Assembly: GCA_964016885.1 (NCBI GenBank)
Contig: OZ024743.1
Coordinates: 294,624,001 to 294,688,000, forward strand
Length of the DNA stretch: 64,000 bases
Source: Eledone cirrhosa
Lineage: Eukaryota
Direction: 5' to 3'
The notes under the pieces were generated by a model, which was given only the letters and a program-made list of their open reading frames with translations, was not told the DNA's origin and made no database searches. Positions 1,292 through 61,257 of this stretch are shown here, one piece after another. Within the stretch, counting starts at the first letter, position 1, and every line of letters begins with the position of its first letter. Position numbers and translations under genes: made by a program.

Positions 1292-1348
1292 CAACCAGCA
1301 GTATTCTTCTCACCCATATTGTCATATATATATATATATATATATATA

Positions 1349-3119
1349 GTAATAATAATAAATTTGAAGACTAAAATCCAAAGAGGGCTCGATAAGGATA
1401 AATATATATCAAATATATAAGAACCGTAGAGCAAATATTTATTAAAATAAAAGATTAAAGTTTAAGCAAAGAATCGCTGTTTTCACCCTTAACGGAATCT
1501 TCTGAAACTAAAAAAGTCACTCTGTAAACGCAGAAGTGGATATTTCAAAAAACGTAGCAACCGGAGGAAGACAGCAAGACGATACTTTGGTTCGTGGAAA
1601 CGTTCCCTGGCAAAGAACGGTAAAAAACGAATATAATACGTTATTAATAGGAGCGGTGAAAAACAATTACACGCAAAGACAGAATCACGTTTAAGGTATA
1701 AAAGAAGTCGTAGACTAATGTTCTCTTAGGTGGTTCATAGAGACGTTCTCTGGCAATGAACGGAAAAAACGAAGATAATACGTCATATGTGGAGCGTGGA
1801 GAACAATTGCAAGCAAAGGCAAAACCACGTAAATGGTATAGCTGAAGTCGTAGACTAAATTCTAACTAGGAAACCGAATGAATCTCCGCTTCAGAGTATA
1901 TAAATACACTACAGAGGTAATAGAAATTAAATAAATGCATACACGCATGCAAATACGTACATACACAAGCATGCGCAAAATACTCGCCATAGGTATACAA
2001 AACATCGCACATATAAACATGTGTGTGTGTGTGTGTGTGTGCGTGTATACAAATAATTAAATAATTAAATAAACGTATATAAATAAATAAATACGTATAT
2101 AACAAGCGCACACACATACCTACATGTAAATACACAAATGTGCGGAGACGTAAGTCAACCAAAACATAAAGTACACATATACACACACCCTACATACGTA
2201 CGAACCTGCATACTCACGCAGACGCAAAACTCCCGTATACACATAACCAAACCATATGTACCAGAATATATAGAAAATTTATACGCCATAACATAATCAA
2301 TCAAATATACGTATAAAAAAGTATACGTACCGTCACGAAACATACAGGTAATATATACTTACCTATGCAAATAAGTAATGGTATAAACAAAACATATACT
2401 TAGCTACCACATCAAGACGTAAAATATCCACGTACAGATCGAACTATCCGTTAGGGTATAATGTGGGGCTGTAATACAGGAAAGGTTTGTGCAATTTATG
2501 TTTACAAGCCGAAATTGCCTCAGATTTTTTGTTTAAGATGTGGTCTGTGGCTTAGAGTATTTCCAGGGCCTCAGCGGCGTAGAGGTCACATGGTCTTTTA
2601 TTTCCATTATACGATCTAGCCCTAGCTAGGATCACCCAGTGTAACTTATATTGGGTGTGGTTGTCTTTTAGACTCCAGATATAAGCTGAAAGTGACGTCA
2701 TATTCCTTCTTAGAGGGTAACGAAAAGAATGGGTATGCATGTAAAGACGTTGCATAAATCTATTGGCGGTTAACCCTATGTAGGCCCTACGGGACGTGGG
2801 TGTTTCAACCTTACATTTGTAGACAATCTTATTAGAGAGGCATTTCCTGGATTATACCATAAACGTGGTTCTGTCTTTGCGCGTACTTGTTTTTCACCGT
2901 TCCTATTAATGACGCATTATATTCGTTTTTTCCCGTTCTTTGCCAGGGAACGTTTCCACGAACCAAAGTATCATCTTCCTGTCTTCCTCCGGTTGCAACG
3001 TTTTTTTGAAATATCCACTTTTGCGTTTACAGATTGACTTTGTTAGTTTCAGAAGATCCCGTTAAGGGTGAAAGCAGCGATTCTTTGCTTAAACTTTAAT
3101 CTGTTATTTTAATAAATAT
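1349..3119 (-). mobile_element. 5'-truncated Penelope-like element: GIY-YIG remnant, 3' pLTR and upstream inverted partial pLTR
   Basis: Minus-strand GIY-YIG coding remnant at 2848->2451. Segment 2852-3119 is the reverse complement of about 1435-1702. Both ends abut (TA)n. Internal ~140-bp tandem duplication (1600-1720 and 1742-1860). Confidence 0.8.
2451..2848 (-). pseudogene. PLE GIY-YIG endonuclease C-terminal remnant
   Basis: Manual translation: KCLSNKIVYKCKVETPTSRRAYIGLTANRFMQRLYMH...TSLSAYIWSLK...CDLYAAEALEIL*...LNKKSEAISACKH. VY/YIG motifs and the LN..SE...C.H tail are typical of PLE endonucleases. One in-frame stop. Confidence 0.85.
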
Positions 3120-3130
3120 ATATATATATA

Positions 3131-3930
3131 ATGTGACAAAGGCAAAGGAAAAACGAGTGCTGTAAAAAATATTGTGTTGTTGAAAGTATGTGATAAAGGC
3201 CCATGGTGGTAAAATAAGAGAGAATGTTCAGGAAAAGATGAAGTCAAGAAGTGAATGATATGTAAAATAAGTGTGAAATAAAGTAAAATAAAATAAGAGA
3301 AATTGTTCAAGGTAAGGGAAAAGAAGAAATGAATAAAATAGGTGTAAGTATAAGTGTTGAATGTGTGATAAAGATCCATAGTGTTTAAAGTAAGAACGAG
3401 AGTTCAAGGTGTAATAAATGATAAGTATTGGATGTGTGAAAAGGAGAGAGTGTTCAAGGTGGGTAAGTGTCCAAAATGGTGTTTTTATACCGAGAAAGGA
3501 GGTGAGTTCTTATATGTGGGCAAATTTTGAATATCTCAGAATTAGAGTTAAGACAGGTGTTAGGAGATTTCAGATTCTCTAGAATTCTATATTTTTCTGT
3601 TACGCACACGGTATACCTTCTTGTGCCTTTAACATATTCTTTTGATTGGTCTAAGATAGACCAATCAGTTTCATATGGGATCCCACGCTCTTTCATCTCC
3701 CACATTCTATTTACCAGCGACGTGTGCATAGTATCTTTTTTTAAAGGTATCCTGGGTCATGCCCACATAACATTCTCCGGTAGAAGACTGGTTGGTTTAA
3801 ATAGGTCTCATGATTGCCTCATATACAACGGATTTGATGTTGCATTTGCCTTGCAAAGGATATTCACCTGGATTTCTGCATGAACATCCTGAGATTCTTC
3901 TGTCAGTTTTTACGGTGGTGATTTTCGAGA
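3131..3930 (-). mobile_element. Second PLE fragment (different family): GIY-YIG remnant plus 3' UTR
   Basis: YPLQGKCNIKSVVYEA...CYVGMTQDTFKKRY, then ORF 3454-3729 (WSILDQSKEY...CVTEKYRIL...LNSNSEIFKICPH). The 3' end runs into the (TA)n at 3116-3130. Confidence 0.8.
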
Positions 3931-5769
3931 TGAAAGTTTGTGGGGGGAGGAATTTCTCACCTCATAGTTTTACATAAAACTAATTCTAGTCCCTCAGTTC
4001 TCAAATATCATCAACACTGTTACATTTCTTTATGCATACGTACAATCAATAAAACATACACACACATCACATACACACAAACGCACACAAATTTAGCAAT
4101 TCATCCTAACCCAACCACCTCTGTAACACAATTAGCATATCATCTTATAATTAGAGGTAGTTAATAAATATTATCTCCTCATTGACGAAAGAACTCAATT
4201 GTTCATATCATTAACTTGCTGCTTGTTAAAATGAAAGTACAACAAACAAACAAGCGAAGAAATTTAATTCGATCTCCAGTAACATTAAACACGGGTTAAT
4301 CCTGAAGTTGCTCTCTCCACTACCGGCACAATAACACAGAATTTAAGTACTAGAAGTCACACTATTGATCAGACATGACCATGGATAAAACGAACTGCAG
4401 TAATTAACTGTGACATCTGAAATGATATTCATATAAGGAAAAGTGAGCCATGAAGCTCAAATAAACGGCCTTTCATCTAAGAAAAAAATTATAAATGCTA
4501 AAATTACGAAATACAATAAATTCTGAAATAATAATTAAAATAAATATAACTCCCAATTGCACACAAAAATGAACATGCAACAATTAGAATAAATTTGAAA
4601 TTATTGCAATGTGAGAATAATTGCTGTGCAGCCTTCTATTGCGATAATCATATTATTTGGATTAATTGCAGGTAGTATACAAAGAGGCGAATACATTTGG
4701 TTAACGGTAAATTGGAGTAATAAATGAATAATTGGCAGCATTGCTAGAATTATCACACCCGCTATTATTAGTGTCAAGATTATTATTACTGGAACGCTGA
4801 AGGATCTTCAGGGCATAGGCGGAAAATGTTTACAGGCATTTGTTCCAGCTCTTTAGGTACTGATTTCAATTTTGAATTTCATCCTTTTATTGTCTATAAA
4901 ATCTATCACCAGTCAAGTGCTAGAATCAATGTAATCAGGTTCCCCACATAACAAATATTACTGACTTTGTGCTTACATTTTAAATCATGTTTATCTTTAG
5001 TAGAAGGCTGAGAGATACATTAAAATATCGGACGAAATAACTTATGGTATTCTTTCCGGGTTCTTACATTCTGAGTTCAAATCTCAAATTACCATACGTG
5101 AGAGACATCCTAGATGAATACTCTAGTCATAATACAGCTTACCAGCTCTAGAGATTGACAAACATGTTTGATAGTGACTTGGAAGTAGCAGTGTGAAGGT
5201 ATGTGGGTTTGTGTTCGGGTATGCGGCACCCAATCTTAAAGTCATTAAATTCAGTGATGGTGGTACGTACTCTGCCTGAGAGAGACTAGTTATTTTACTA
5301 GCCAGCATCTACTGAGCTGGCAAAAATGATGTTTATCTGTAATTCAAATCACACGCGTTTGATGCACAATTCGATGCTCTGAATTTCTGAGAGAACTACT
5401 TTGAAGGTTCACACACGTTCCAGTAGCGTGCTTAGGCATATGAGCATTAATATCTCGACCAGGTTGATGGATTGTTTGAAATGAGATATACGCCGTAGGA
5501 ATCGATGGAGATCCAACAATTACTACAACAAATCAATCTTAGAACTGGAATATATCATCCACATGATTGGGTTTTAGTCTACGATGTACGACGGGGCTCA
5601 GTTAGATCAGAGTAAAGAACCCGATATGCTTTACTTTTGGTAGTTTACGGCAGTTCGTTAATCAGAGAGATGGGCTCACATATTGACCTCGAGATATTAA
5701 CGGATACAACTCATTAATTGCCATAAGTATATACTTTCGTCATTTCTTCTGTCACATGCACAACTGTTT

Positions 5770-7206: not shown

Positions 7207-9924
7207 TCATTCCAAAGCCTCTGGATAAACAACATTCTTGGTTTTACCCTGTGGTGCCACAATGAAGAGACAATCAGGGTTTCCAACCCTTGTTGTGCCA
7301 ACTTAGAGTTGACCATGTGAAAAGACGGGATCTGCCAGATTCAACCCAATGACTTTCAATGATTACCCTTGAGATTTATTTATGGTCATGGCAAAACTGA
7401 GCCTGATCGGAAATTGAAGTCTTTGAAATTCAAATAGCAAATCAGTTGGCTTCAGAGGTATTCTGGGAATGAAACAATTGCCACCATCAAATTTTTCTGA
7501 CATGATTGCAACTTCTAGAACATTGGACATCATATTTTTGATGATGAGTCTTGTGCCATTACAAAGATTTGGAGGATCGAGATTGCAAAATAACATAACC
7601 GATTGCTCCAAACTTCAGTATCAGGTCGTGTGGAGGAATTCCCGCTTGTTCAAGACTGTTCAAAAATTCAGTTGGATAGTTTACAACCTGGTCTTGAGAA
7701 GTGATTGTGTCAACTGATTTGTAGCATATTTTCTCTCCCGTTAACATCTCCAGCAGCCTTCTGTTGATTTCTTTCACAGCATCATTTTTCGGTGCTAAGA
7801 TTGCTCGTTCACAGAGCCATTTTGGATCACATTGCCTGGTCTGAATGTTTGGAAACACTCTGGCAATCAGTTCTTGTTCTGTGTCAATGATATGGCCAAA
7901 TGACAACTGAATATGGTCATTCGAGTCCTTTTCAAGAAGTCCATTTCCCAATTTAAGTAGTTGGATGGCAAACTCACTGACACCTTCGTAACCAGTTAAG
8001 TGCAATCGCATGGTGGTTGTAAAGCTCACCAGATGAAAGTGGGGCCAGAGATAGGATGTTTTCAGACATGCATTGATCTGACAGCTCGAGTCCCTCGAAG
8101 AATTACAGGCAGAGTTTGTCTGAAATCACCAGCAAGAACCATTGTCACTCCTCTCATTATGCATCTATTTCCTCTCAGATCCCTTATCGTCCGGCCCAAA
8201 ACTCCAATTTCTCCTTTATGGCTCATAGTAGCTTCATCCCAAATTATCATCTTGCATGTTTGCAGAAGCTTGCCTTTGGGTGAGCTCTTCTTGATGTTGC
8301 AAAAAGATCTATGGGCAGCTTAAACATGGAGTGTGCAGTTCTTCCACCATCCAGAAGTGTTGTTGCAATGCCACTTGAAGCCACTTCTGCCACTCAATAG
8401 TGATCATCCAAGCACTAAGCTCACCAAAGATTCTTCCTTCTTTTAGGAGCCAGATGAGTTTGTTTTGCTTTTCACGGGAAACCCGAGCAATGTGGTCATG
8501 TAAATGTAATGAAGAGATCTGGCCGACCAAATTTTCTGACATAGGCCATTGCATCTTGCGTACGTTCATGCATATAACGTGGTCCTCCCGTGAAGCTTGA
8601 TGGCAGTATGACTGGCTGGCCAATATTTCTTGAGTCAACATCAGAATTGATGGCATCTCTAAGGTGGATGTAGTTATCTGCCCTCAAATTAGTTTCATTC
8701 CTTCACAGAAATCCCAATCTTTCTGTTTCAATTTTGGCATACATGTCCACCATGAAATGGCTGGTTACTTCTTTGAATCGCAGAATTTCGTTGAAGTGAT
8801 CACGTACCATGAAATGTTAAGCATAGAATTCTTTGCAGCTGATTGATCGGCCAGTTTCTTGTCCCGTTCCTGGGCTGATCTGCCGTAGCTGAACATGATA
8901 CCCATCTTGACTATGCCAAAAGATGAGCGGATATTGGAGTGAATAATAGGCTCTATGAGTTTCACAAATTCGCTCCAAATGTCCACTTCGTTTTTGCAAA
9001 ACAATGTCACGTCGTTCAAACCATTATGAGTGCAACTTCATCAGTGACAGGTGCATTGAATCTGCATTCATGTTCTGAAACTGGGCGTTTGTCTGCTGAT
9101 GATTTTACGATCTCTGGTGTTGTTCATAAGCTCCAGTGCATATTTAAGTACACGTGATGTTGGTGAAGCATTTCTTGTAACTTTATGACTATGTAGAACT
9201 GCAATCCACCATGGACATTAGTACATCTTTGCTGTGCCATGAAGTAAACCTGCACAAATTTGTAAGGCTCCTGTGAAAGTGGCAGAAGGCCACACATTAA
9301 GTGATAACACTGTCCCTGAATTTTATAAGTTGTACAGAATCTAAAGTCAGTCATATTCCTGTCAGCCCCAAAAGATGTAATTTGAATTATATTTTATGAT
9401 GTTTTTATTGAAGTGTCGTGCTTCTGGTGTATGCTGAAGGAGCAGATTCTTCAGAAATTCAGGCGATTCTTGTATTGTTTCAAGTCTCACTTTGCCTTTT
9501 GAGAAGCATAGACTTGGTGTTTCTGCTGCCCACTTCTTGGCACCACAATACTGGCAGCATTTATTCATTTTCCCAATGTTGATTTGTGGATTACTGCTGT
9601 AGTCCTTTTGGACGTCATAAGAAAATGCACCCATCAGCCAGTTCATTTTACTTGTGGCTTGTTCTCCTGCTCGGGCAGTAGAACGATGTGCTTGATTAGC
9701 TTTTAGTCTAATTTGCTGCTGTTCCTTAATTTGTTGTTCTCGTGTAGCAGCAGTCTTTCTACCCTTTCATCCAAACGGTGTGTTCGTGCTAAAGCTGTTT
9801 GGGCTCTGTTAGCAGCTAGATGGGCATGCCGAACTTCTTCACTTTCTTCAGATCGCTGTGTCTTCTTTCTCTTAGCCTCTAAAGATGACCTTCTATATAA
9901 GGATCTGGAACGTTTTCTAGGCAT
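7207..9924 (-). pseudogene. Helitron RepHel (Rep + PIF1-family helicase), frameshifted and deleted
   Basis: N-terminal MPRKRSRS; Zn-finger-like CQYCGAKKW...CFSKGKV; Rep region PSSFTGGPRYMHERTQDAMAYVRKFGRPDLFITFT; helicase motifs VASSGIATTLLDGGRTAHS, IIWDEATM, LAGDFRQTLPV, LCNGTRL, QFPIRLSFAMTINKSQG, FSHGQL; ends KNVVYPEALE*. Confidence 0.92.
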
Positions 9925-9951
9925 TTGAAGTGATATTATTACACACCACAC

Positions 9952-10020
9952 GATAAAATAAAGTACCAGTAATGCACTGAAATAATTGCTGGCCTTGTGC
10001 CAAAAGTAGAAACAATTATT
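9952..10020 (+). mobile_element. 5'-truncated SINE inserted in the Helitron, with 17-bp TSD
   Basis: Matches the 3' part of the SINE at 34873. attattacacaccacac occurs at 9935-9951 and 10015-10031. Confidence 0.85.
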
Positions 10021-10489
10021 ACACACCACACTCTTTCCGAAATAGAAACAACTATAGAATGTATTGTTCACTCAGTAAAGTTGTTTTAAATGATCTCTTT
10101 ATAAGAATGTATATTAGGAGTAATTAATTTTAGACATACATTTGTAGAACATATTGGGATTTCAGATTGTATTCTGGAATTTTTTATCCAACATCCCCAA
10201 AAAAACGACAAACACTACAAAAAAAAAAATATTTTCAGTGTTAATTCAAATAACAGCAGAAAATAATATATTCAAATAATATCTTTTAAAAATACCGTTT
10301 TTTTTTGTTTGTTAAATAGATACATATATACAACTTCTATAAAAACATCGGTGATTTCTTTAGACATATGCTTTGATGATAACATATATCGTCTGCTAAA
10401 GAACGCCCCCCCCCCCCCCCATAACACACGCATATGTGTGTGTAAATGTATATATAAACGCGGACACACGTTCGGTAAAGAATCCCTCC

Positions 10490-11977: not shown

Positions 11978-13170
<1,193 letters not shown>

Positions 13171-15903: not shown

Positions 15904-16288
<385 letters not shown>

Positions 16289-19340: not shown

Positions 19341-19820
19341 AAACCAAATAATGAAATATTACGTGTTATTGACGAAATAGGGGATGAATATTTACGACGA
19401 ATAAAACCCCAACATTTTGGCAAATCAACGCCTGTTTATATGCCTTAGAAACGACAGTGAAGCTTTATCTTGGTGATAGCAGATATATTAACAAGAACAG
19501 AACACCACCAAATATACCATCATATATAACTAAAACAGAAAAAAAAGATTGCTGACCTGCGAAAAACCATAGGATATGTTACAATGCTCCTTGCATGCAA
19601 ACAAACACAAAAAAAACTCAGTCCTCACCAACAAAGAGTGAAAAATAAAATAGAGACGATGTTTGGTAACAGTAGAACCAGAACTCTTCAATATTAGCTG
19701 ATCACCCTCAAACAAGAATTGAGAGCTGTTAGCGAAAAACGCCGATACCTGAAGAAGGTAGATGAAAGAAAAGTGCTTAATAAAAGATTCAGACGAAACC
19801 AAATATCAGTCTATTGAGAT

Positions 19821-21557
19821 ATGAAGAACAAAATAAGTGTCACTGAGGCCCCATCCCAGAAAGACATGGATTCCTTTTGGAGCAAAATCTGGGGTGAAGA
19901 GAAGAATTTCAACCAAGATTCAGTGTGGCTAAGAGAAATACGAAAGAACTATTGCTCCTACACTACAACAAAAACATACGAAATAAGTGAGGATACCCTT
20001 GAGACAGTGATAGAAAAACCCCAAGATAAGAAAACGCCAGGAAGAGACATAATTGTCGGCTACTGGTACAAAGAACTAATATTCTATCGGAGGTATCTTA
20101 CTGACCTCTACCAACAAGTTCTTAAGGGAGATACACTTATAGCAGAATGGCTGACATTAGCACAAACATTACTGGTCTCCAAGAACAAAGACACCCACTT
20201 GGCAAAAAACTACCGACCCAATGCATGCCAGAACCTGATGTATAGGATGTATACAGCCTGCCTGAACCTATTCCTCCAAGATCACTGTGAAAATAATAAC
20301 ATCATCACAGATGAACAAACAGCTGTAAAGAAAGGGGTTTGGGGATGTGCCGAACAACTCCTAATCAACAAAACTGCGATGTCGGAGGTGAGACAACTTA
20401 GGATGAATATCGCTACAGTCTGGCTGGACTACAGGAAAGCTTTCGATTCTGTTCCCCACTCTTGGATGATAGAGGCCCTCCAACTTGCTAAAGTCCCAGA
20501 CATTATTGTCAGAGCCATAGAGAGGCTGTCTTCTTCTTGGGCTACTATCCTAAGGTTAAAGACAAAGAAGGAGGACTCTATTTTCACTGATAAAATAAAA
20601 TATTGCAGGGGTATATTTCAGGGGGACAGTCTCTCTGTGATATTATTCATCTTGTCATTAAAGCCCTTGTCATTTCTGCTCAAGAAATGTGAGGGATACA
20701 TCATTGGCTCACAGGAAGACATAAATACGAACCTAAACCATAATTTCTTTGTGGACGATCTGAAACTCTATGCCAAAAACATGGATGGGATGAAGAAAAA
20801 TCTTGACCTGGTTACAACGTTCTTAAAGGATATAGGAATGGAATTTGGGCAAGATAAATGCTCATACATGACTGTAAAGCGGGGAAAAACAACGAACCAA
20901 TCTAGCAACATTGTCATCAATAATCTAACTGTTTCACCGATATCTGGTGAGGACTGCTACAGATACCTGGGGATAGATGAGAACATATCCTATAATGGTA
21001 TCTGTAATAAGGAACGCGTAACCAGGGAATACAACACCCGATTAAGAAAGATCTGGTCATCGGAACTCTCTGCGCAAAACAAAACAGTGTCTCATAATGT
21101 GTTTGCTGTGCCTGTCCTAACACCAACGTTTGGAACACTCAATTGGACGATAGACGAAATCCGAGCAGTTGATGTTGGAACTCGAAAAATTCTAAACAAC
21201 ACCGGAAACTTCCACATCATAATTTTCAGAGACCGCCTTTACTTGAAACGTAAGCAGGGAGGAAGAGGCCTAACAACAGTCCAGACAACATTTGAATGTC
21301 GCAACATTTCCCTCCGAAAACATCTACGAACCTCGAAGCGTAGGAGCCCGTTTCTCGAGCAAGTCTATCTGCATGAAACAGATAAGATCATGAGAGTTGG
21401 GAAGGAACTCCTCGAGAGATATTCCCTGTGTGATAATCAAAATCTCACATCCAGGGAAGTCGCTCAGCAGTATTGCAGTGAATCCATGGATGAAAATCTG
21501 CATGCTTATCAGCAAAAATATCGTGCATGGATGTGTTGCCAGGAAGCTCCAGAGTGA
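19821..21557 (+). pseudogene. Reverse transcriptase domain of the R4/Dong element (578-aa open stretch)
   Basis: KNYRP, WLDYRKAFDSVPHSW, RGIFQGDSLS, FFVDDLKLY, YRYLGI, DRLYLKRKQGGRGL. Flanking parts of the ORF are broken. Confidence 0.92.
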
Positions 21558-22531
21558 GAGTAATATAGATAAGTAAAGTAGTCTATATTGGACCAACAAC
21601 CACTATATTGGCTCCCACTTTGAAGGATACGCTTTTGCAATCCAAGAACAGGAGATTAACACGAAATACCTGATTCACAAAAGAGATAGGGATGCAGGCA
21701 AAATACCTAGATGTGATAACAAGTGCAGACTCTGCTGAACTAACATCGAGGATATCACCCATGTCATCAGCAGCTGTCCAAAGATATCATCGCGGTACTA
21801 TTTACCTATGAGGCATTATGTAGTGGCCAAAACACTGTACAATGCAGTTTGTAAAAAAGATAGCCCAATAATAAACACATTAAAAGCTACAGAAATATGG
21901 AAGACATCCATGTACATAATATGAAAGAGTACTGGTGGCATGTTCCAGTAAAAACCCCAATAAAATGCAGGCATAACAGACCAGATATTATGATATGGGA
22001 TAGGGAGAGGAAAGCATGCACAGTAGTGGAAATTAGCTGCCCAGCAGATGCCAATATAATATCAAAGATTAGTGAAAAGGAGAATATTTATGCAGAACTG
22101 ATGAGAAATCTGCAGATACTCCACCCTGATTACACATTCAGATTTATGCCTGTGATTATTGGGGCAGTGGGGTATATTAGTAACTGCCTCAGCACAAATC
22201 GGGAGAAGCTAGGCTTCACAGGAACAGAAAGAACACAACTAGTTAGGAAATTACAAGTACAATCCAGTAAAAATATGTAAAACATTCCAAAAATGTTGCA
22301 TCTAATAACTGCATATACACATGTACAGATACAAAGCATATATACATGCACACATACAACTCAAAACATCCACATCCACACATACAATAACATCCATATC
22401 TACACATGCATGCATACATAATCTACCTAGTTGATGTTGTGTAAATTCCAATGAGAGAGTCTTGTGTCTATGTTAGAAACCGACTCTCTCTCTATTGTGA
22501 AAAAATTTGTGAAATTATAAAACGAGAAGAA

Positions 22532-22681
<150 letters not shown>

Positions 22682-22849
22682 CGGGTAAACAAATTATTGT
22701 TATAGGTAGTCCACTTAGATGTAGTCCAGTTAGGGTACTCCGAGTAGTGGATAGTATTAACGCTTGGCTAAGTTTGACTGAACAAGACGTTTCCATAGCG
22801 ATGCTGCGAGTACACGGGGATTTCTATGTAGTTTACACCTGGAGTAATA

Positions 22850-23252
22850 ATAAATCAAGAAAGAAGAGTGACATGGTTTGCTATACAATAAGGTCTTTAT
22901 TCACATTGCTGACAATTGTTTCTCTGAACTGGTAGGTCTAGAGATCGCTACCTGCCTGGTTTTGCGTCAATCGATCACCAATACTATGTTATAACCAGTC
23001 TATTCATCAGAGCATGTGAGAATGAGGGGAATAAATAGGCATGGCTTCTATATATAGTATTGGCATTAAATCAGAACAATAATAACAGCACTCAAATAAA
23101 TTAGCTAGATAGTAAATAGTTAAAATAATCACAACATCGCAAAAACAGGCGGGTAGCGATCTTTAGACCTAGTTCAGAGAAACAATTGTCAGCAATATGA
23201 ATTAAAACTCTTATTGTATAGCAAACCATATCACTCTTCTTTTTTGATTTAT
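22850..23252. mobile_element. Inverted-repeat element (~115-bp arms) with hammerhead remnants
   Basis: 22850-22966 vs 23138-23252. The right arm has GAAAC-AATT-GTC. The spacer has a minus-strand CTGATGA at 23004-23010. Confidence 0.7.
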
Positions 23253-23260
23253 ATATATAT

Positions 23261-23872
23261 ATTAAAATAACAGATTTAAGTTTAAGCAAAGAATCGCTGC
23301 TTTCCCCCTTAACGGGATCTTCTGAAACCAAAAAAGTCAATCTGTGAACGCAGAAGTAAATATTTCGAAAAACGTTGCAACCGAAGGAAGACAGGAAGAC
23401 GATACTTTTGTTCGTGTAAACGTTCCCTGGCAAAGATTGGAAAAAAACGAGTGTAATACGATGAAAACAATTACACGCAAAGACAAAACCACGTTTATGG
23501 TATAAATGAAGTCACAGAAGAATATTCTATTAGGTGGTTTTGTCTGTGCGTGTAATTGTTCTCCACGATCCACATAATGACGTATTATCTTCGTTTTTTC
23601 TGTTCATTGCCAGAGAACGTCTCCACAAACCAAAGTATCGTCTTCCTGTCTTCGTTCGATTGCAACGCTTTTTGAAATATTTACTTCTGCGTTCACAGAT
23701 TGACTTTTTTAGTTTCAGAAGATCTCGTTAAGGGGGAAAGCAGCTATTCTTTGCTTAAACTTTAATCTGTTATTTTAATAAATATTTGCTCAACGGTTCT
23801 TATATATTTGATATATATTTATCCTTATCGAGGCCTCTTTGGATTTTAGTCTTCAAATTTATTATTATTACT
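23261..23872. mobile_element. ORF-less inverted pLTR pair of the same PLE family as 1349-3119
   Basis: 23261-23492 vs 23534-23779 are inverted. Both align by eye with 1440-1700. 23780-23872 is the reverse complement of 1349-1440. (TA)n on both sides. Confidence 0.85.
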
Positions 23873-23907
23873 ATATATATATATATTTATATATATATAT
23901 AAATATA

Positions 23908-23994
<87 letters not shown>

Positions 23995-24569
23995 ACTAGA
24001 AATTGATTGACATATATATATATATACCTAAAATAAACATATGAAACAATCAGTTGAAAGGACTTGACTGCTATTTCTAGTCGTCAATAACCCCATTCAC
24101 GCCACTGGGACGAAGCTGGCGCGATTTGTGTATATGTATTAAATGCAACACGTGCTAATAGTTAGTCACATATTTGAATTTGATGTGTAAACACAGATAG
24201 TTAAGTCTTCTTCCTTGTTGAAAATCCAAAATTTGATTACTGTCGTTTACCAATGGATTAATTGGTGAAATATATTTCTTTAAGGAAATATATACAAGGA
24301 AGATTAATCAATTTATAAGGTATCTATTTTTGAAGTTCTAGTTAAACTTGAATTAGTTACCCACATAGCTGTGTATGCTTACACACTTTTACAGATTATC
24401 CCCTGTGATTGTGTCATATGTTTATTTTATATATATATATATATATATGTCAATCAATTTCTAGTTGATATAAAATGCTCGAACCTATTCATTGGAATCT
24501 TGGAGCATATTTTACAATGGATATGGCGTATGTCTCTCTGACATGACACCCTTAATTTAATCTAAATTT

Positions 24570-24616
<47 letters not shown>

Positions 24617-24893
24617 CGTTTATTGATCGGTGACGCGCTATTCATTATTGATCAGCTCATGGTTCGATCTGTATCGATCTGGCCCGACTCTGGAATCAAA
24701 ATCTCGTCGGACCTATGCTGCTGTTCTAATGACAGAATATATATATATATTGATTTCCTTCGGATGAAATATTTCCAGTCCATTTCTATATTAAAGTTTG
24801 TATATACTCAACTGTGTATTGAGTACCTTACTTACTGTGGTTACCACTCATTGAACCCTGGACTCACACACCACTCGCACACACACACACACA

Positions 24894-24946
<53 letters not shown>

Positions 24947-24949
<3 letters not shown>

Positions 24950-25042
24950 ATTGTTTCTACTTTTAGCACAAGGCCAGGAATTATCCAGTACATTACTGGT
25001 ACTTTATTTTATCGACCCCTTAAGGATGAAAGGCAAAGTTAA
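24947..25042 (-). mobile_element. SINE, 3' half
   Basis: ttgtttctacttttagcacaaggccag...gatgaaaggcaaagttaa. Confidence 0.85.
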
Positions 25043-25414
25043 TGGCTATCAATATGACCAGCTATTGCGATCTCCTGCTTCCTTAAATATGGAGCCCAAC
25101 GCCCCAACAAAACCCCCATCATGGTCTCTCCGGTTGAGGAAAACATACGACAGTATAGCAAACCAAAAGCACACCTAGGAACCGGAAGTATGTCCACGTA
25201 CCATACTGCTGCATTAGTAACCGAAAACCTGTGACTTCTTCCGCCTATACTACACACATTCTATGAAAAGCCCATCGTCTGCTTGTGGCTCGAGGATATC
25301 CTTCATATAACATAGGATGATCATAGTTAACGGAAAAAGAAAAAAGAATATACGCAAAAAGTGCTTATAGCTCAACTCTCACAGTGACTGGAAAGCCACT
25401 TTCTAACTCTCTCT

Positions 25415-25530
<116 letters not shown>

Positions 25531-25592
25531 GAAGTATTTCCTTCGGAAAGCTACAGGAAAAAAGAGTGCTATATGTAGGCTACAGAGCTTAT

Positions 25593-25725
25593 TAGTTATG
25601 TAATAAACAATATAAGATAATTGTTTCATTTACCAGTGGTTTCTTGTAGGCAGATGTTATGTTATAATATGTGCCTTCAAGAAACCACTGGTAAATGAAA
25701 TAATTTTCTTATGTTGTTTATTACA

Positions 25726-25731
<6 letters not shown>
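25593..25731. mobile_element. Fold-back element (~68-bp arms, 3-nt loop) abutting (TA)n
   Basis: 25593-25660 pairs with 25664-25731 with few mismatches. Confidence 0.75.
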
Positions 25732-25800
<69 letters not shown>

Positions 25801-25817
25801 ATAATAATAAAATTTTA

Positions 25818-26696
<879 letters not shown>

Positions 26697-26800
26697 AGTA
26701 TATCTACCAACATATGTATACAGATGTATATCCATGCTAGCAAATATATATGTTATGTCTTAGTACCTTTGTGGGTCTATGCAAGGGGATACAGAACAAT

Positions 26801-27040
26801 TATATGAAAGACGTAAAATAAGAGAATTTTAAAATTAACTTACTTACTAAAATTTTCACTCCAACTAATTAGTTTCTGTAAGGGAATAAATATAGTTACG
26901 CAAAGCAACTATAGAGAATTCCTTGACGTAAGGATTTCTCTATAGTTGCGTTGCGTAACTATATTTATTCCCTTACAGAAACTAATTAGTTGGAGTGAAA
27001 ATTTTAGTAAGTTAATTTTAAAATTCTCTTATTTTACGTC

Positions 27041-27049
<9 letters not shown>
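26801..27049. mobile_element. Near-perfect ~250-bp palindrome abutting (TA)n
   Basis: Arms 26801-26924 and 26930-27049, loop gacgt. About 2 substitutions and one 4-bp indel. Confidence 0.8.
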
Positions 27050-27095
<46 letters not shown>

Positions 27096-27099
<4 letters not shown>

Positions 27100-27890
27100 A
27101 AAATATGGTTTGAGGAAGGCGAGTCTGTATGTTTATTGATAACAAGTGTTAGAAGGTAAGGCGACAACACTCGTTATCAGTAACTACACAGGCTCGCCTT
27201 CCTCAACCCATATTTTTGTATTTACAGCTGTGAGCTCCTCTCTACCTGTTTCGCTCGATTTGTTGTTCCTGGTCGGACTTATGTCGAATCACGCTTTTGG
27301 ATCAACTCCCCCCTCTCTCTCTATCTCTCTCTCTTTCTTTCTATCCATTGGCTTGTTTTTCGGTCTCGGTTGCACGTGCGTTGTAAACCCTTTTGGATTA
27401 ACTCCATTTTCCTTCTCCTCCCCCGTCTCCCTCTATCCCTCTTACTCACCCCCCCACCCACACCCCGTGTCTATCGCCTCTCACTTCCGATTTCTCCGTC
27501 TTTCTCTCTCTCTACACTTAATTTACTGAGAATAGCCACGGAAATACCTGCACCTCTGTTATTATGGCCACCGAACTTAAATCCAATGGCTTGGTTTAAC
27601 TTGATCTATTTTCTCTTCGGTTACTCACATACATGTGCCATTGTCCTGTGTTCCCCCTTCTATCGGTATGTTTACTTCATTTTTCCTCTTTTTCATCTTC
27701 CCTTTTTTTCTTTCTTTCTCTCTCTTCGCTATCACTTCTTTCCCTCGTGTCATATTGATAGATAAAAGGCTATGTGCGCGCTATGGATCGATGTTCTGTT
27801 TATAATGCGCCGAAACATCTAGGACCCATAGTAAACAGCTGACGAAGGGAAACTTTCCATTACGTTTGTGACGCCTTACCTTCTACCTAT
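27096..27890 (+). mobile_element. PLE-like tail with a 5' fold-back and a decayed hammerhead
   Basis: Inverted repeat 27096-27150 vs 27166-27220. Pyrimidine-rich body. ctatgg...GAAACatcta...ccatag at 27781-27831 and CTGACGA at 27839. (TA)n on both sides. Confidence 0.55.
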
Positions 27891-27901
27891 ATATATATAA
27901 C

Positions 27902-28042
<141 letters not shown>

Positions 28043-28181
28043 TTAGGTTTGTTGGTTCACCAATGGATAGAACTGGTCATTCTGTATGGTCAACCTCGAT
28101 GTAATATTAGGGAGAGCACTCGACGTAATGCAACTCACCGGTCTTTGCTTGTGTTGTTGGTGGTGCGAGTACGGAGTTAAT

Positions 28182-28590
28182 TATTATGAAATAAAAGGAG
28201 GCTGGACTGGTGTAATTCCTTAAAGGTTTATTATACTATGATTATTTCAATGACCGTGTTCAGTATGAATCCGGTGACAACATCGAGTATTCGAAATTCA
28301 ACATAGGAATATAATACACACAATCCATTGTCTGAAAAGGCAGAGAGACAAGAAGGCGGCCACACATTTAGCAGTTTCTAGTCAGGTCGGCCGCCTTCAA
28401 GTCGTACTAGAAACTGCTAAATGTGTGGCCGCCTTCTTGTCTCTCTGCCTTTTCAGCCCCATGGATTGTGTCTATTATATTCCTTTGTTAAATTTCGAAT
28501 ACCTGATGATGTCACCGGATTCATACTGAACACGGCCATTGACATGTTCATAGTATAATAAACCTTTAAGCCTCCTCTTATTTTATAATA
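28182..28590. mobile_element. Fold-back element (~185-200-bp arms) abutting (TA)n
   Basis: 28182-28382 vs 28406-28590. CTGATGA...GAACacgg.c hammerhead-like remnant at 28503-28537. Confidence 0.78.
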
Positions 28591-32536: not shown

Positions 32537-32784
32537 ATATTAATGATATTAATAAATGGAAACTATATTTATAAAACCATATTTATTCTATTATATATAT
32601 TTCAAGGGTACCAAAACTTTGGCACGCTCTCGTCAGATAAAATGCAAAGTTTGTTTTATAAATTTTGACATACCCAGGAATGAGACCTTAACGGTTTAAG
32701 TTTTGTCTGGTATCCTTGAAATATATATAATAGAATAAATATGGTTTTATAAATATAGTTTCCATTTATTAATATCATTGATAT
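32537..32784. mobile_element. Inverted-repeat element (~77-bp arms)
   Basis: 32537-32613 vs 32708-32784. The spacer has a minus-strand CTGACGA (32630-32636). Short TA run on the right. Confidence 0.72.
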
Positions 32785-34073: not shown

Positions 34074-34140
34074 AATTCAGACTGCCTGAAGAGGTCACAG
34101 CCAATAATAGCTGTCACCGAAATATTTATAGCAGAGAATT
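34074..34140 (+). ncRNA. Type I hammerhead ribozyme
   Basis: aattc..ctgc-CTGAAGA-ggtcacagc-caataata-gctgtcacc-GAAA-t-attt-a-TA-gcag.gaatt. Predicted cleavage after A34130. Followed by AATAAA and a short TA run. Confidence 0.75.
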
Positions 34141-42239: not shown

Positions 42240-45200
42240 TTACAGACACATACTCAGAGTAGGTCCACTCACTCGGGCCATACTTGCTTCTCTCACCCAT
42301 CTTTCAACATAATGCTGGGAAGAGAGCACTTCCCTCTCTACCCTGATTTTCCTTTTCAAATGAAATTTGAAAAAGTTAATCAGGGCATCACCGAAGAGGT
42401 AAGTGCTCGTCTTCAGCCCTTTCAAACGTGTCCGCCATACTATCTCTTTTTCCATGGCCACCAGTGAGATAAACAATTGCCTGCCCTTCCCGGCTAAAGG
42501 AAGAGGGCGGAGCAATCCTCACGATGGACTCAGCTGATAGCTGGATCCGTCCTACACGAGACAGCAGGTGTTCGACATAAACCCACAAGTCAGCAATGCT
42601 CGGACACTGGACGAGTGCGTGCAGGACGGTTTAGTCGCCCTGCACGCATCTCGAACATGCCCGGTTGACGGCACCTTCATGCCTGTAGAGTTTATCCCGA
42701 ACTGGCAAAGCCCCTCGGTAGCACTGCCAGGCCAGGGATTTCTGGAAGTTGTCCATAGGCCTCGGCCCGAAAGTCCTTCCGAAGAGATTGGCTAGTTGAT
42801 TTTCGTCGACGCCTAGAGTTTCTCCAAGTACGTCGTCGCTCTTCCCCTCCACTAATCCTCTATAGAACGCCAAGGTGGAGTTTCTACCGATCACATTGCC
42901 CGATTGGTCGAGGGCTGTGAGCGCCTGAAGACATTCCAGTCTCCAAGCGCTCCCTCTCGGTCTTCGCTTGACACAGGACTGCAGCTCTGTCAAGGAGACG
43001 AGCTGGGGAAAGACGCGTCTTGCAAACGGCGACCACACCTGATCATAGTCGAGGAAGAGGTGGAGATTTCGTATCCTGAGCGCGTGTCTGCGCATCATCA
43101 GCGACGGCATGCCCAGCCCTCCACGTAGCGGGTGTTGACAATAGATGGACCGCTTGACCATCGGAGCGCGTCCCTTCCACAAAAATCGTAAGAGCAAACG
43201 TTCCAGCGCAGTCAGGCGGGGCTTAGGACAAGGTACGATGGTCAGGCGGTAGCAGATGACGGACGCGATGTACGCGTTAGCCACCTCCGCTCGACCTTTC
43301 AGGGATAGCTTCCTCTCGGCCCATTTCTGGGTGAGAGAAACCACGCTGCTCGTCACCACGTCCCAGTTTTTGTCCGTCTGGAGGTCCGGACCGAACCAGA
43401 CCCCTAGCAATTTAACCGGTCCGTCCGTCCAGCGCCCGACGACGCTGTTGGGCGGCATGGACCTGCATCTCCAGGTGCCGAGCTGCAGGCCCACTGACTT
43501 TTTCTGGTTGATCATTGTTCCTGTCACCGCTTCGTATTCTTTTAGTGTAGTGCCGATCGCATCGATGTGTTTGGCGTTCGATACCACTACGGTGACATCG
43601 TCCGCATATGCTGACACGGATCTTCTGCATCCTAGTTCGCGGGGGACCCCAGCCCCCACCCCCAACGTGACCAGTTTATGCAGTAATGGCTCGAGAGTCA
43701 ATACGTACAAGAGGGACGAGAGGGGACATCCTTGGCGGACCGAGCGCATGATGTTGAACGGTTCTGAAAGGTGACCGTTCACTCTCACCACAGAGCAGAT
43801 GTCGCCGTGCATGGCATCGATCCATCCTCTGAAGACGGGCCCAAAGCCAGCTGCCCTCAGGACTGCCGCTAGGTAACGATGGTCGCTCCTATCGAAAGCT
43901 TTCGACTGATCTAAATTGATCAAGGTCCCACCCGTGTCAGGTTCCTTAGCTACCCTCTCTACGATGTATCGCATGAGGTGGAGGTTGTCGTGGATGGATC
44001 TGTCGGGAATGGCGCACGTCAGCGCCTCTCCCACCAGACCACCAACGACAAGCGCCAACCTCTTTGCTAGCACCTTGGCCAAAATCTTGAACTCTGTGTT
44101 TAGCAGAGTTATGGGCCTAAAATTATCTATGTTATCCCCCTTGTTCGGATCCTTTCTCAGCAGCGCCACAGCTCCTCGGCTCACAGAGCTGGGAATTCTC
44201 CCGTTCTGTTGCCAGTTGCAGTAGACGTCTGCCAAGAAGCATCCGAACAAGTATGGCATATGTACGTAAAGTTCATAGGGCAGACCATCCAAACCAGGCG
44301 ATTTACCCCTTGTGTAGCCAGTCATTGCCTCCCGTACTTCAGCGGCTGTTATCGGCATTTCGCAACACTCCGCCTCAATGGACGAGAGCCGCGGCAGTCC
44401 GTCGAGGTAGACACTAAAGTCGATCCCTCGATTCGGCCCGCCGCTGCCCCCGAACAGCTGGACGAAGTGTCGCTGGAAAGCTTCTCACATTTGCCCGGGA
44501 TCGAGTAGCATTCGCCCGTCGTGGTCCACCAAAGACCGGATCGTGGCTTTGTTGCCACGACGCGCATCCGCCACTCGGGTCCATTGAGCGGCTTTGGTCC
44601 CCTCGTGTCTGAGAGCACGCACCTTAGCTCTGACAACGCAGCCTTCGTGCTTTGCATTGAAGAATTGGTCAAGGGCCAATTTCGCCGCAAGTACGTCGGT
44701 CGCATTGCTCCCTCTGCCCTATTTTTCTCTATTGCTAAATCCTTACTAAATCTAATGGACTCTATTCTAATTGCTATGTTCAGAGCAAACCACTTGTTGT
44801 TGACGATGACCCTCGTCAACGCCCGCTTAACTAGTTCGCTAATCCGGTCTCTGTAGGTCTTGCGCGCTGGTAAGGACGCGTTTAGCTTCCAGTAGCCGGG
44901 TCCTAGTCTATGAAGCCTATCTAAGTCAAGCACAGAGATCACGAATTTGTGGTCCGTGTAGCTGACTATCTTGAATTGTGGACAGCCTATGCTAGACCTA
45001 TCTATTTCCCTAGAAAATACCCTATCTATATATGATCTGGATGACCCTATGCGATTTGTCCAAGTCCACATTTGCACATTCGGGAAATCCAATCGGTACC
45101 TGTCAGACAGTTCAAAACGCCTGAGTATGTTGTGAAGACTCTTGCACCATCCTCCCCTATTCACTAATCCCACACAGTCCAAGCGTGCATCTAAGATCCC

Positions 45201-45630
45201 GTTCCAGTCGCCCACTAACACTAAAGAGCGGGACGTTCCAAGAAAGGTCTCCAGACGCCGGAAGAAATCAGGCCGCCCTGCTCCTGTCGGGGCATAGACG
45301 GCCACTAACCTGAAAGCTTGCCCGTCTCCGCTGGTCACGTTCAGCACCACTAACTTACCTTCTGGGTCCAGGAAGATGGCCCGTATGCAAGATCCAAACC
45401 TCTCCGAAAAAGCACAGTAACTCCTCCCCCCCGATCCCGGACGGCTGGGAGATGCGTACACATCGTAGCCGCCGAATATCGGTGCGAAGGCCCGTGCTTC
45501 GGAGATTCTGGTCTCGCTGATGGCCGCTACATCTATGTTTAGTGATCTGAGGTCGTTGTGCAAGTGGCCCTGCTTCCATGACGACCCCAAGCCACGCGCA
45601 TTTATGCTGCCTATTCTGAGTGTTGAAATG
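42240..45630 (-). pseudogene. Tx1 ORF2: APE endonuclease, RT and C-terminal zinc finger, frameshifted
   Basis: IGSINARGL, AISETR, VAVYAP, LVGDWN, SYIDRV, YTDHK, YWKLN; KSPGLDG, NFRPITLLN, LDQSKAFD, SVRQGCPLS, AYADD, KLLGV; CSRC...HALVQC. Confidence 0.93.
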
Positions 45631-45654
45631 GAGTGGAAAAGATGGGAAAACCAC

Positions 45655-47527
45655 TTATCTTACTTCTCGTAGAGGAAGGACGGTTTCTCCATCCTTTTCA
45701 CTGCTTGTGGCCTCCTCAGGAAGGATGTCCTTATAAATCCTCCTGGGGAGTGCTTGTCGGAAGTCTCCGATGTCTTTGGGGAATTTTTGTTTTAGTATCA
45801 TGTACGTTTTCTGTGTGATGCGAGTGATTTGTATGTGTGGAGATGGTGTGAACTTTTGGGTTGTTGTGTAGTCTTTTTCTGTGATGCTGGTGTTGTGTTG
45901 GATGTAGTGTAATAATTGGTTGTTGTTCAAATTTAATGCTGTGTAGTGTGTATGGTTTTGGTTCTTTGTCTTGTTTGCGTTTGTTGTGGGTTTGTTTCTG
46001 TTTCGCTTTTTGGTGACTTTTGTGGTGTAGGTGATAGTGGTGGTGGGGTTAATGATGGTGATGGTGTTGGTGTTTGGGGTGATGGGGTTGGTGATGCTGG
46101 TGTGGATGGTGGCATATCTGTCCTAACTTTTTTGTTTGATAGATTATTTGTTTCCCCCTGTATTTTGTTTTTGGAGGGGGAAGGGAGAGATTTTTTTCTT
46201 TTTTGGTTTCTCTTTTTTTCCTGTTACCGTTCCCACTCCTCGTCGTCACAATCTGTCTCCAATTGTGTTAGGCCGGGGAGTGGAAAATCCTCCACAGGCA
46301 TTAGTTTTGGTTGTGGCGTGGTGGATGGTGTATTGCGCTGATGCTAGTTCTGGCTCGTTGGGTGGTGCTGGTGTTGGTTTTGCTACTGTTGCTGGGGTTG
46401 TTGCTGTTACAGTTTCTTTTGTTGTTGCTGATACAGTTGTTGCTGCCATCTCTTCTGCTGGTGGTGTTGATGGTTGAGTCACTGGGGTGGGTAGGAGATG
46501 TGGCCTCAACCTTTTAGCCTGAGAGCAGAAAGCCCTTAGGTGGGTTCCTTCACCACAAACGACACACCTAAGCCTTCTACCGTCGACGATTACGGTGAGG
46601 TGGCTGCCCTCAGTGAGGTCTATTACCTCTGGGATCTCCTCAATGCTTCTTCGGTCCGCTTGGATCAGGAGCTCCATCCCAGGTCCGGACCAGATCTGCT
46701 TTTCTTTCGCTATTTCGATTATCTTTGTGTTGGCTTCGATGCCGGCGAGGACGGCAGCTATTAGCCAGGAAATTTCGATGGCCGGTGGAACGTGGGTGAC
46801 CCTGATCTTTACGAGTCTCTGGCCACAATAGCTTGGGACGAGTGTGAAGTCATCACTTCTTAATGGGACCATGGAGTGTTGTCTAGCCTCCTGTGGTGTT
46901 TCAAAGTACACGTCCACGGTTCCATATTTCTGCCCACGTCTGATGTGGGTTTTCTTTGGCCACACATGTCCCAAAGCTCTTTGGATTTGGCACTCGGATG
47001 CCCGTTCCACTCGGCGCGATTTTATATTAATTGTTCGATAAGACACGGTGCATAGGCGCCGATGCTCCATTTTATTAGGTGTGGGGTGGGGGTGAGGCTG
47101 ACCCTGTACCCATCTTTCTTTACCATTTTTTTGGCTTCTAATACCTCCTGAGTTACTTGAAATGCTACGCACTCTTTTGTTACTCTGGCAAAACTCAGCG
47201 TGGTTTTCTTAATGTCATTGTTGCTGTTGTTGTGGTGGTGGCGTCAATGGTGTTCGGTGTGGAAGAATTCATTTTGGTTGAATTCATTTCGATATCACGA
47301 GTTAATTTATCTTTTTCTTTTGTTTCTGTTATCGCGGTGGTGGTGGTGGTGGCGGCTTTAACACCTGCAGTCATTGGTAAAGGCGGGAAATGAATATCTG
47401 GCTGAGACAAATTTAAAATATTGCTACTGCTTATATGTTTAGTGTTGGCAAACGTAGTAATATTTACAATAGTGGTGTCGGTGTGAGGTGTTAGTTTATG
47501 AGGAAAGTGTGACTCTGAGTCAGTCAT
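45655..47527 (-). pseudogene. Tx1 ORF1 (RRM-like domain + CCHC knuckle), fragmented
   Basis: ORF 46246-47172 contains GTVDVYFETPQEA and CVVCGEGTHLRAFC, followed by a P/T-rich tail. It lies directly upstream of ORF2. Confidence 0.8.
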
Positions 47528-48981: not shown

Positions 48982-49000
48982 AAATAATAATAATAATAAT

Positions 49001-61197: not shown

Positions 61198-61257
<60 letters not shown>

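What the first reader, a model, noticed from the sequence alone, without database searches (positions are those of the whole stretch)
1349..3119. Linking element: the fold-back arms are the 3' end of a GIY-YIG Penelope-like element
Seen: here a GIY-YIG remnant plus 3' UTR (minus strand) is capped by an inverted copy of its own tail. At 23261-23872 the same tail occurs as an inverted pair with no ORF. This ties at least one palindrome family to PLEs and shows a size continuum from ORF-bearing to hairpin-only insertions, all bounded by (TA)n.
Basis: partly seen in the sequence, partly recalled or inferred. Interest (0 to 1): 0.7.

Follow-up and report, generated by a model that had tools for sequence, protein, structure and literature searches.

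The report
Hydra Penelope retroelement with inverted cap
This is a broken, 5'-truncated Penelope-like retrotransposon of the Hydra clade sitting in a TA repeat and capped by an inverted copy of its own near-end; the layout is already known, but its 609-nt and 24-nt relatives and the neighbouring palindromes suggest that such hairpins likely form when reverse transcription starts on both sides of one DNA cut.

Summary
Observation confirmed, with corrections. 1349-3115 (minus strand) is a 5'-truncated Hydra-clade PLE. It has a GIY-YIG remnant (2447-2851; fold matches I-TevI, Z 9.4), a 3' UTR, and an inverted cap (2852-3115) that is 93% identical to 1439-1701. The cap omits the last 90 nt, the PLE 'tail'. 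23263-23871 has the same build without an ORF. 25798-25821 is a 24-nt version: 10 nt of cap start plus 14 nt of tail end. The arms group by locus (6 sites against 0), so the caps are made per insertion and this is not a MITE. The arms carry a hammerhead-like motif with an unusual U4A core. Inverted 5' copy, tail, hammerhead and (TA)n target are all published for PLEs, including Hydra. Not found in my searches: all ten long palindromes here are one-sided (cap flush with TA, tail on the other arm), and 6 of 9 families share an RCTC motif 6-8 nt past the cap end. Best mechanism (about 0.6): priming from both strands at two RNA start sites. Fold-back is not excluded. No RT of this family lies in the window and no genome-wide test was possible.

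The parts
1325..1348 (.). (TA)12, target tract at the distal (tail) end of E1
1349..1438 (-). 90-nt tail, absent from the inverted cap; 88 of 90 nt identical to the E2 tail
1387..1432 (-). GCTC...GAGC motif starting 6 nt past the cap-end (proximal) site
1439..1701 (-). Tail-bearing arm: the part of the 3' UTR copied by the cap
1459..1509 (-). Hammerhead-like motif, core CAGAAGA; stem III altered in this copy, so it failed the scan and was placed by alignment to the cap copy
1588..1858 (-). Internal tandem duplication of about 140 nt in the 3' UTR (unit B 1588-1718, unit A 1731-1858, 80% identical)
1859..2446 (-). Upstream 3' UTR, rich in CA/TG simple repeats, starting at the ORF stop codon (2444-2446)
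2447..2851 (-). Hydra-type GIY-YIG endonuclease remnant, cut off inside the Cys linker, one internal stop, one conserved Cys lost
2852..3115 (+). Inverted cap (inverted 5'-truncated copy, inverted pLTR), flush with the TA tract
3045..3095 (+). Type I hammerhead-like motif, core CAGAAGA (U4A); predicted cut after 3090, 25 nt from the cap end
3116..3130 (.). (TA)7 tract at the cap end; also the 3' flank of the neighbouring element E3
23263..23539 (-). E2 inverted cap, flush with (TA)6 at 23250-23261; hammerhead-like motif at 23279-23329
23534..23781 (+). E2 tail-bearing arm; 6-nt overlap with the cap at 23534-23539; hammerhead-like motif at 23711-23761
23782..23871 (+). E2 90-nt tail, followed by (TA)n 23872-23991
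25798..25821 (-). 24-nt minimal member between (TA)34 and (TA)14: first 10 nt equal the cap's outer end, last 14 nt equal the tail end

Best explanation
This is a 5'-truncated Hydra-clade Penelope-like retrotransposon in a (TA)n tract with an inverted copy of its near-3' end, and the inversion likely arose at insertion, when the element's endonuclease would have cut both strands and each cut end would have primed reverse transcription on the element's RNA from a different start site. Shown by sequence: the domain, the head-to-head layout, a cap ending flush on TA, a 90-nt tail on the other arm only, and caps made separately at each locus. Inferred: (1) the RNA is a tandem or read-through transcript, so the tail is the start of the next unit; (2) a distal site at the tail end and a proximal AT-rich site 21-25 nt past the hammerhead cut site are the two priming points, and a few nt of TA pair with the template; (3) the RCTC...GAGY hairpin just 3' of the proximal site positions the protein; (4) the two cDNAs stop independently and are joined at short overlaps. 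How far each got sets the size: 1503+264 nt in E1, about 340+277 nt in E2, 14+10 nt in the minimal copy. The ORF-less hairpins would then be truncation products, not a separate mobile class.
For: Identity: 120 full-length relatives of the best long hit carry Craig's Hydra marks (RW[KQR] 100/120, DK[TS] 118/120, CxxCxxE 117/120, N..E..CxH 114/120, CxxC between the two Tyr motifs 0/79 scorable), and published Hydra ENs match the remnant by eye. Per-locus caps: 6 sites against 0, and 5 against 0 in the 155 columns outside the duplication. Asymmetry: 9 of 60 inter-TA segments hold a long inverted repeat; 8 of the 9 have one arm flush with TA, the ninth does after a 17-nt indel, and a tenth was added by eye. 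None of the 10 is symmetric. Template and TA flank share 1-5 nt at the cap end in 10 of 10. RCTC lies 6-8 nt past the cap end in 6 of 9 families (P about 6e-6 for an 18-nt window). Arms that are not nested: at 25851-26491 the tail-less arm is the long one, holding a hammerhead and about 245 nt that the other lacks, while the tail arm has 40 nt of its own and ends in a repeat of the long arm's first 30 nt. At 16009-16197 the cap has 5 extra nt that complete the ribozyme. In vitro, the Anolis PLE nicks and extends both strands and starts at two sites that bracket the tail (PMC11167929).
Against: E1 itself is nested and fits fold-back equally well. E2 is ambiguous: its tail arm is a mosaic of units A and B, which slippage, a snap-back patch or a later deletion could each give. 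Central deletion in a once longer palindrome could mimic arms that are not nested, and the 24-nt copy could be a collapsed palindrome. The RCTC motif was defined after seeing the tails; in the whole window the full motif gives 13 hits (10 loci, 4 of them used to define it) against a shuffle mean of 3.15 and a maximum of 8, so independent support there is thin. The eight other palindrome families have no ORF link in the window. The hammerhead fold is not the predicted minimum-energy fold in any of the four arms (z +0.45 to +1.07), and Rfam does not list it. The in vitro data come from another clade (Poseidon). No null was computed for the 1-5 nt overlaps.
Confidence: 0.6

Rival explanations
1. 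Same element, but the cap is made by fold-back or self-priming: one cDNA (or an antisense RNA, as Arkhipova 2013 proposed) turns on itself at a short inverted match, is copied back as far as the proximal site, and is joined to TA there.
For: E1 is nested. Short inverted overlaps sit at inner junctions (6 nt in E2, 5 nt at 26067-26071). The first 25 nt or so of the E2 tail arm look copied from the cap (B-type bases). It explains the shared private bases and the one-sided tail. Self-priming is the published hypothesis (PMC3846280).
Against: It needs one arm to be a subset of the other, which fails at 25851-26491 and, weakly, at 16009-16197 unless later deletions are invoked. A 14-nt first cDNA could not template the 10-nt cap of the minimal copy. 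It does not explain why copying stops 6-8 nt before a conserved RNA motif. Published Hydra consensi end near the same place (about 30-40 nt past the hammerhead) without a tail, so that site seems to prime on its own.
Confidence: 0.3
2. The inversion arose after insertion, by repair or replication template switching next to fragile (TA)n tracts, and has nothing to do with the PLE machinery.
For: Long TA tracts flank every case, and the arms share locus-private bases.
Against: The E1 and E2 caps end within about 4 nt of the same internal site, 90 nt from the end, and the minimal copy uses the same site. Nearby LINE and SINE-like repeats show no such caps.
Confidence: 0.06
3. A MITE with terminal inverted repeats, into which a PLE endonuclease fragment inserted independently at E1.
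For: TA targets, long inverted arms, and an ORF-less copy exist.
Against: Inherited TIRs should group left with left; 0 sites do, and 6 group by locus. One arm always carries an unpaired tail. The arms hold a hammerhead-like motif in ORF orientation where Hydra elements have theirs. Arm lengths differ between loci.
Confidence: 0.03

Closest known systems
Hydra clade of EN+ PLEs (Craig et al. 2021, PMC8557442), e.g. Penelope-13_HM and Hydra-1_Obim
   Same: C-terminal GIY-YIG without CCHH, with CxxC and CxH around the conserved E and N; type I hammerhead near the 3' end; (TA)n target; Penelope-13_HM is listed with a 5'-truncated inverted copy at its 5' end.
   Different: A different family from Hydra-1_Obim (other hammerhead and UTR, by eye). 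The 3' UTR here is about 1.1 kb with an internal duplication. The core is CAGAAGA, while the Hydra cores in their File S2 read CTGANGA. The tail is 90 nt, not the 30-40 nt they quote.
Penelope elements of Adineta vaga (Arkhipova et al. 2013, PMC3846280)
   Same: Head-to-head inverted pLTR, optional tail on one pLTR, overlap at the inverted junction.
   Different: Penelope/Poseidon type, with visible target-site duplications; interpreted as self-priming, which the non-nested cases here fit less well.
Poseidon PAc of Anolis in vitro (Frangieh et al. 2024, PMC11167929)
   Same: Two RT start sites that bracket the tail; both strands nicked and extended; AT-rich target; predicted dimer.
   Different: Another clade; its tail lies in the start of the ORF; in the parts I read it does not connect the two sites to the two arms of inverted insertions.
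Non-LTR retrozymes (Li et al. 2026 preprint, 10.64898/2026.07.22.740005)
   Same: ORF-less, hammerhead-bearing derivatives of PLE ends.
   Different: Those are tandem direct arrays; these are single head-to-head insertions. Only 25851-26491 hints at a permuted monomer of about 465 nt.
L1 twin priming (recalled, no call)
   Same: Two primers from one target break give an inverted 5' end joined at a short overlap.
   Different: In L1 the inverted part is a different, upstream stretch of the RNA; here both arms copy the same stretch, giving a palindrome.

Membership tests
EN+ PLE | GIY-YIG endonuclease | tested here: met
   Fold: I-TevI Z 9.4, T4 EndoII Z 8.0, UvrC Z 6.0, the top three of 48,161 chains. 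Pfam does not hit the remnant itself; 4 of 42 aligned members hit PF01541. Foldseek gave no E<=0.001 match, with T4 EndoII on top.
EN+ PLE | Telomerase-like RT in the same ORF | not testable with these tools
   The RT part is truncated away. A relative, P0042 (44% over the EN), has RT motifs upstream of a C-terminal EN.
EN+ PLE | 5' truncation with inverted pLTR and a tail on one end | tested here: met
   against the description in PMC8557442
Hydra clade | EN is C-terminal | tested here: met
   Stop codon and 3' UTR follow the EN; it matches profile positions 571-693 of 703
Hydra clade | No CCHH motif | tested here: met
   No Cys pair between the two Tyr motifs in the remnant; 0 of 81 scorable among its 150 best hits
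Hydra clade | CxxC and CxH flanking the conserved E and N | tested here: met
   CxH intact; CxxC has lost its second Cys in this copy, which is 99% conserved in relatives
Hydra clade | CxCx5C linker | tested here: inconclusive
   The cap junction cuts the linker in E1. CxCx4-7CP is in 111 of 120 full-length relatives, and a decayed form is in neighbour E3
Hydra clade | RWK and DKT motifs, RT phylogeny | not testable with these tools
   No RT of this family in the window; the motifs were counted only in relatives
Hydra clade | Canonical hammerhead near the 3' end | tested here: inconclusive
   Right place and topology in 3 of 4 arms by scan (shuffle rate 0.007 per kb), but the core has U4A in all four, and neither Rfam nor energy folding recovers it
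Hydra clade | Insertion into (TA)n | tested here: met
   3 of 3 family members have TA tracts on both sides
MITE / TIR DNA transposon | Symmetric terminal inverted repeats inherited by descent | tested here: not met
   One-sided tail; arms group by locus, 6 against 0
Non-LTR retrozyme | Tandem direct repeats each with a hammerhead | tested here: not met
   Copies are head-to-head; the internal duplication does not include the hammerhead
Naiad or Neptune PLE | CCHH motif (and N-terminal EN for Naiad) | tested here: not met

The most novel reading that the evidence does not exclude
Hydra PLEs insert by obligate two-ended priming: one RNP uses a distal site for one strand and a proximal site, fixed 6-8 nt upstream of a clade-wide RCTC...GAGY hairpin at the start of the 5' UTR, for the other. 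Every inverted insertion then has exactly one tailed arm, sizes run down to 24 nt, and each insertion regenerates TA targets, so the many unrelated-looking (TA)n-bounded palindromes of this genome are footprints of a large hidden set of Hydra families, not MITEs.
Probability: 0.4. Interest if true: 0.7.

Novelty: new member of a known kind. Interest (0 to 1): 0.4.

Why it matters
The element is an ordinary decayed member of a described clade, so the finding as written is not new. Its value is as a clean record of an open question that Craig et al. name explicitly: how PLEs form inverted structures and tails. The window gives countable predictions (one tail per palindrome, arms that need not be nested, a conserved hairpin beside the proximal site) that link the in vitro two-start-site result to genomic anatomy. 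If it holds, many short palindromes in TA-rich invertebrate genomes should be re-annotated from MITE or unknown to PLE.

Tried and rejected
Pfam on the three EN fragments: no GIY-YIG hit. Word-index search for longer homologues of the remnant: 0 of 47 candidates. PDB sequence search with the EN profile: only 2 designed proteins at E>0.3. Foldseek: nothing at E<=0.001. Rfam over 1-32000: no ribozyme among the 150 of 154 rows shown for E1 or E2; one sub-threshold hammerhead at 26217-26287, and mostly microRNA noise on simple repeats. MAFFT alignment of nine tails did not align the motif, because hairpin lengths differ (39% identity), so no covariance model was built. Search for an RT of this family in the window: none; a weak Hydra RT piece at 63839-63937 cannot be tied to it. 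Target-site duplication: cannot be resolved inside TA tracts. E3 as the missing part of E1: rejected, it is a second EN with no DNA match. E2 as proof against fold-back: rejected as ambiguous. The tail as coding sequence: no start codon or Hydra profile match.

Full report
Observation. Self-comparison of the window shows 2852-3115 as a 264-nt inverted copy of 1439-1701 (93.2%), and 23263-23871 as an inverted pair of the same sequence (89% over 340 nt). Both have TA tracts on each side. The four-way alignment shows that both caps stop at the same internal site, about 90 nt from the element's end. The last 90 nt occur only on the other arm and are 88/90 identical between loci. I call the loci E1 and E2.

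The ORF. The minus strand at 2447-2851 gives 135 codons with one internal stop. Pfam and a word-index search missed it. A full HMMER scan found 3442 relatives at E<=0.001. A model built on 42 sequences (41 of the 150 listed hits plus the query) matches the GIY-YIG nucleases I-TevI (Z 9.4, rmsd 2.3, 88 aligned), T4 EndoII (8.0) and UvrC (6.0) as the top three of 48,161 chains. The longest hit, P0042, is an RT followed by this EN. Of 120 full-length relatives listed, 100 have RW[KQR], 118 DK[TS], 111 CxCx4-7CP, 117 CxxCxxE and 114 the N..E..CxH ending, and 0 of 79 scorable have a Cys pair between the two Tyr motifs. These are the marks that Craig et al. give for the Hydra clade, and their Hydra EN alignment matches the remnant by eye.

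The arms. They hold a type I hammerhead topology 21-25 nt upstream of the cap end. The scan finds it in 3 of 4 arms; the fourth keeps the core but has an altered stem III. Shuffled segments give 0.007 such hits per kb. All four read CAGAAGA where the usual core is CUGANGA. Perreault et al. mention a U4C variant with reduced activity and have no occurrence of 'U4A'. Energy folding does not recover the fold and Rfam does not list it. It is probably weak or inactive; this is untested. In the Anolis element, ribozyme cleavage was not needed for insertion in vitro.

Not a MITE. Of 230 gap-free columns, 6 group the arms by locus, 0 by role and 1 across; outside the internal duplication it is 5 to 0 in 155 columns. 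So each cap was copied from its own locus's template, or homogenised with it later. A third member, 25798-25821, is 24 nt between (TA)34 and (TA)14. Its first 10 nt equal the cap's outer end and its last 14 nt equal the tail end. The family thus spans 1767, 609 and 24 nt.

The wider pattern. Of 60 segments between TA tracts, 9 hold an inverted repeat of 120 nt or more aligned; 8 have one arm flush with TA and an unpaired extension on the other. The ninth is flush after a 17-nt indel. A tenth, 23992-24572, was added by eye because its arms contain an internal TA run. Extensions are 67-176 nt, except one unresolved case of 669 nt. Short palindromes under that size were not analysed. None of the ten is symmetric; if each arm chose between two sites independently and equally, that has odds of about 0.001 (arithmetic). 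Hammerheads were found in three of the eight other families. In 6 of 9 families RCTC starts 6-8 nt past the cap-end site, and the other three have a near match there. The motif was chosen after looking, so its P of 6e-6 is optimistic, and the whole-window count is only modestly above shuffles once the defining loci are set aside. The better outside support is that 5 of the 6 Hydra consensi in Craig's File S7 show a GCTC-type motif, by eye: in the 3' extension (Hydra-2_Amil, Hydra-2_Ajap, Hydra-1_Crog) or at the very 5' start (Hydra-1_Ajap, Hydra-1_Obim). That suggests the tail is the start of the next unit's 5' UTR. At 25851-26491 the tail visibly ends in a repeat of the other arm's first 30 nt.

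Mechanism. Frangieh et al. showed that a PLE protein nicks and extends both strands and starts at two sites that bracket the tail. The simplest reading of the window is that one cut end primes at the distal site and the other at the proximal site, helped by 1-5 nt of match to TA (10 of 10), and that the two truncated cDNAs are then joined. This predicts that either arm may be the longer. At 25851-26491 (arms 98.7% identical) the tail-less arm is the long one and each arm has private sequence. At 16009-16197 the cap has 5 extra nt that complete the ribozyme. Fold-back or self-priming (Arkhipova 2013) needs nested arms. It fits E1, it can fit E2 (a mosaic of units A and B), and it survives elsewhere only with later central deletions, which are plausible in palindromes. 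I put two-ended priming at 0.6 and fold-back at 0.3. All of this paragraph is inference.

Unexplained. The E1 and E2 tails differ at 2 of 90 sites while the tail-bearing arms differ at 17 of 155 (Fisher p 0.013). Faster mutation in fold-prone arms, mixed templates or selection on the source tail are all possible.

What is known. Craig et al. state that PLE copies are often 5'-truncated with an inverted truncated copy at the 5' end and a tail on one end. They list Hydra elements, including one from Octopus bimaculoides, as TA-targeting and hammerhead-bearing, one with an attached inverted copy. The finding is therefore a new member of a known kind. The window looks like a cephalopod-type genome, but that is an untested impression. 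Searches returned nothing on one-tail asymmetry, a conserved Hydra tail motif or two-ended priming for PLEs. The library lacks most subscription papers, and I did not see Evgen'ev and Arkhipova 2005 or Arkhipova 2006.

What I saw of each paper. PMC8557442: abstract, passages, sections 3, 11 and 15, supplement parts 2, 52 and 53 of 59 and search excerpts. PMC11167929: parts 1-2 of 4 of the text; its supplements were not opened and Fig. S2 may bear on the tail claims. PMC3846280, PMC4209133, PMC3088659, PMC8969392: passages only. The 2026 preprint: part 1 of 5 and passages; its supplements are closed. L1 twin priming and the labels for the LINE and SINE-like repeats are recalled and come from no call.

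Verdict. Real, correctly read in outline, and largely explained by published PLE biology. Interest 0.4, carried by the mechanistic regularities rather than by the element; 0.7 if the two-site model and the conserved hairpin hold genome-wide.

Noticed in passing
3131-3952 (-): A second, frameshifted Hydra-type EN remnant (E3) of another family with its own 3' UTR, directly beyond E1's cap; the two share one (TA)7. No cap or hammerhead found.
   Followed up: partly
63839-63937 (-): Weak Hydra-type RT N-terminal fragment (tblastn E 3e-4, profile E 0.02), followed directly by CA-rich sequence and running towards the window end.
   Followed up: partly
22677-28587: Eight capped palindromes and the 24-nt minimal copy lie almost back to back, separated by TA tracts; each insertion may create targets for the next.
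   Followed up: partly
25851-26491: Young capped element (arms 98.7%) with a canonical hammerhead at 26229-26271 in the tail-less arm; its tail implies a permuted unit of about 465 nt, possibly a retrozyme-like non-autonomous RNA.
   Followed up: partly
16009-16197 and 24785-24858: A 189-nt capped hairpin centred in a hammerhead core, and an uncapped 82% copy of its tail; so not every insertion is inverted.
   Followed up: partly
22677-23249: Capped element with a hammerhead with a long loop II; the arms are 93% alike over about 112 nt and then differ over about 90 nt.
   Followed up: partly
61256-61533 (-): 278-nt segment between TA tracts with a full tail-type motif at 61360 and no cap.
   Followed up: partly
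32585-32643 (-), 34082-34134 (+): Two further hammerhead-like motifs outside palindromes.
   Followed up: no
1289-1323; 13112-13151: 35-nt and 40-nt unique islands between TA tracts; they may be minimal insertions of other families.
   Followed up: no
9951, 19168, 24950, 29313, 34855, 40811, 58169: Seven copies of a short dispersed repeat, 88-97% alike, SINE-like by recall.
   Followed up: no
19818-22277 (+), 42634-47208 (-), 48089-49177 (-), 51355-54201 (+): Several decayed non-LTR retrotransposon ORFs with RT and endonuclease-like motifs, read by eye.
   Followed up: no
7562-10071 (-): ORF pieces that look like a Helitron Rep-helicase, by eye and recall.
   Followed up: no
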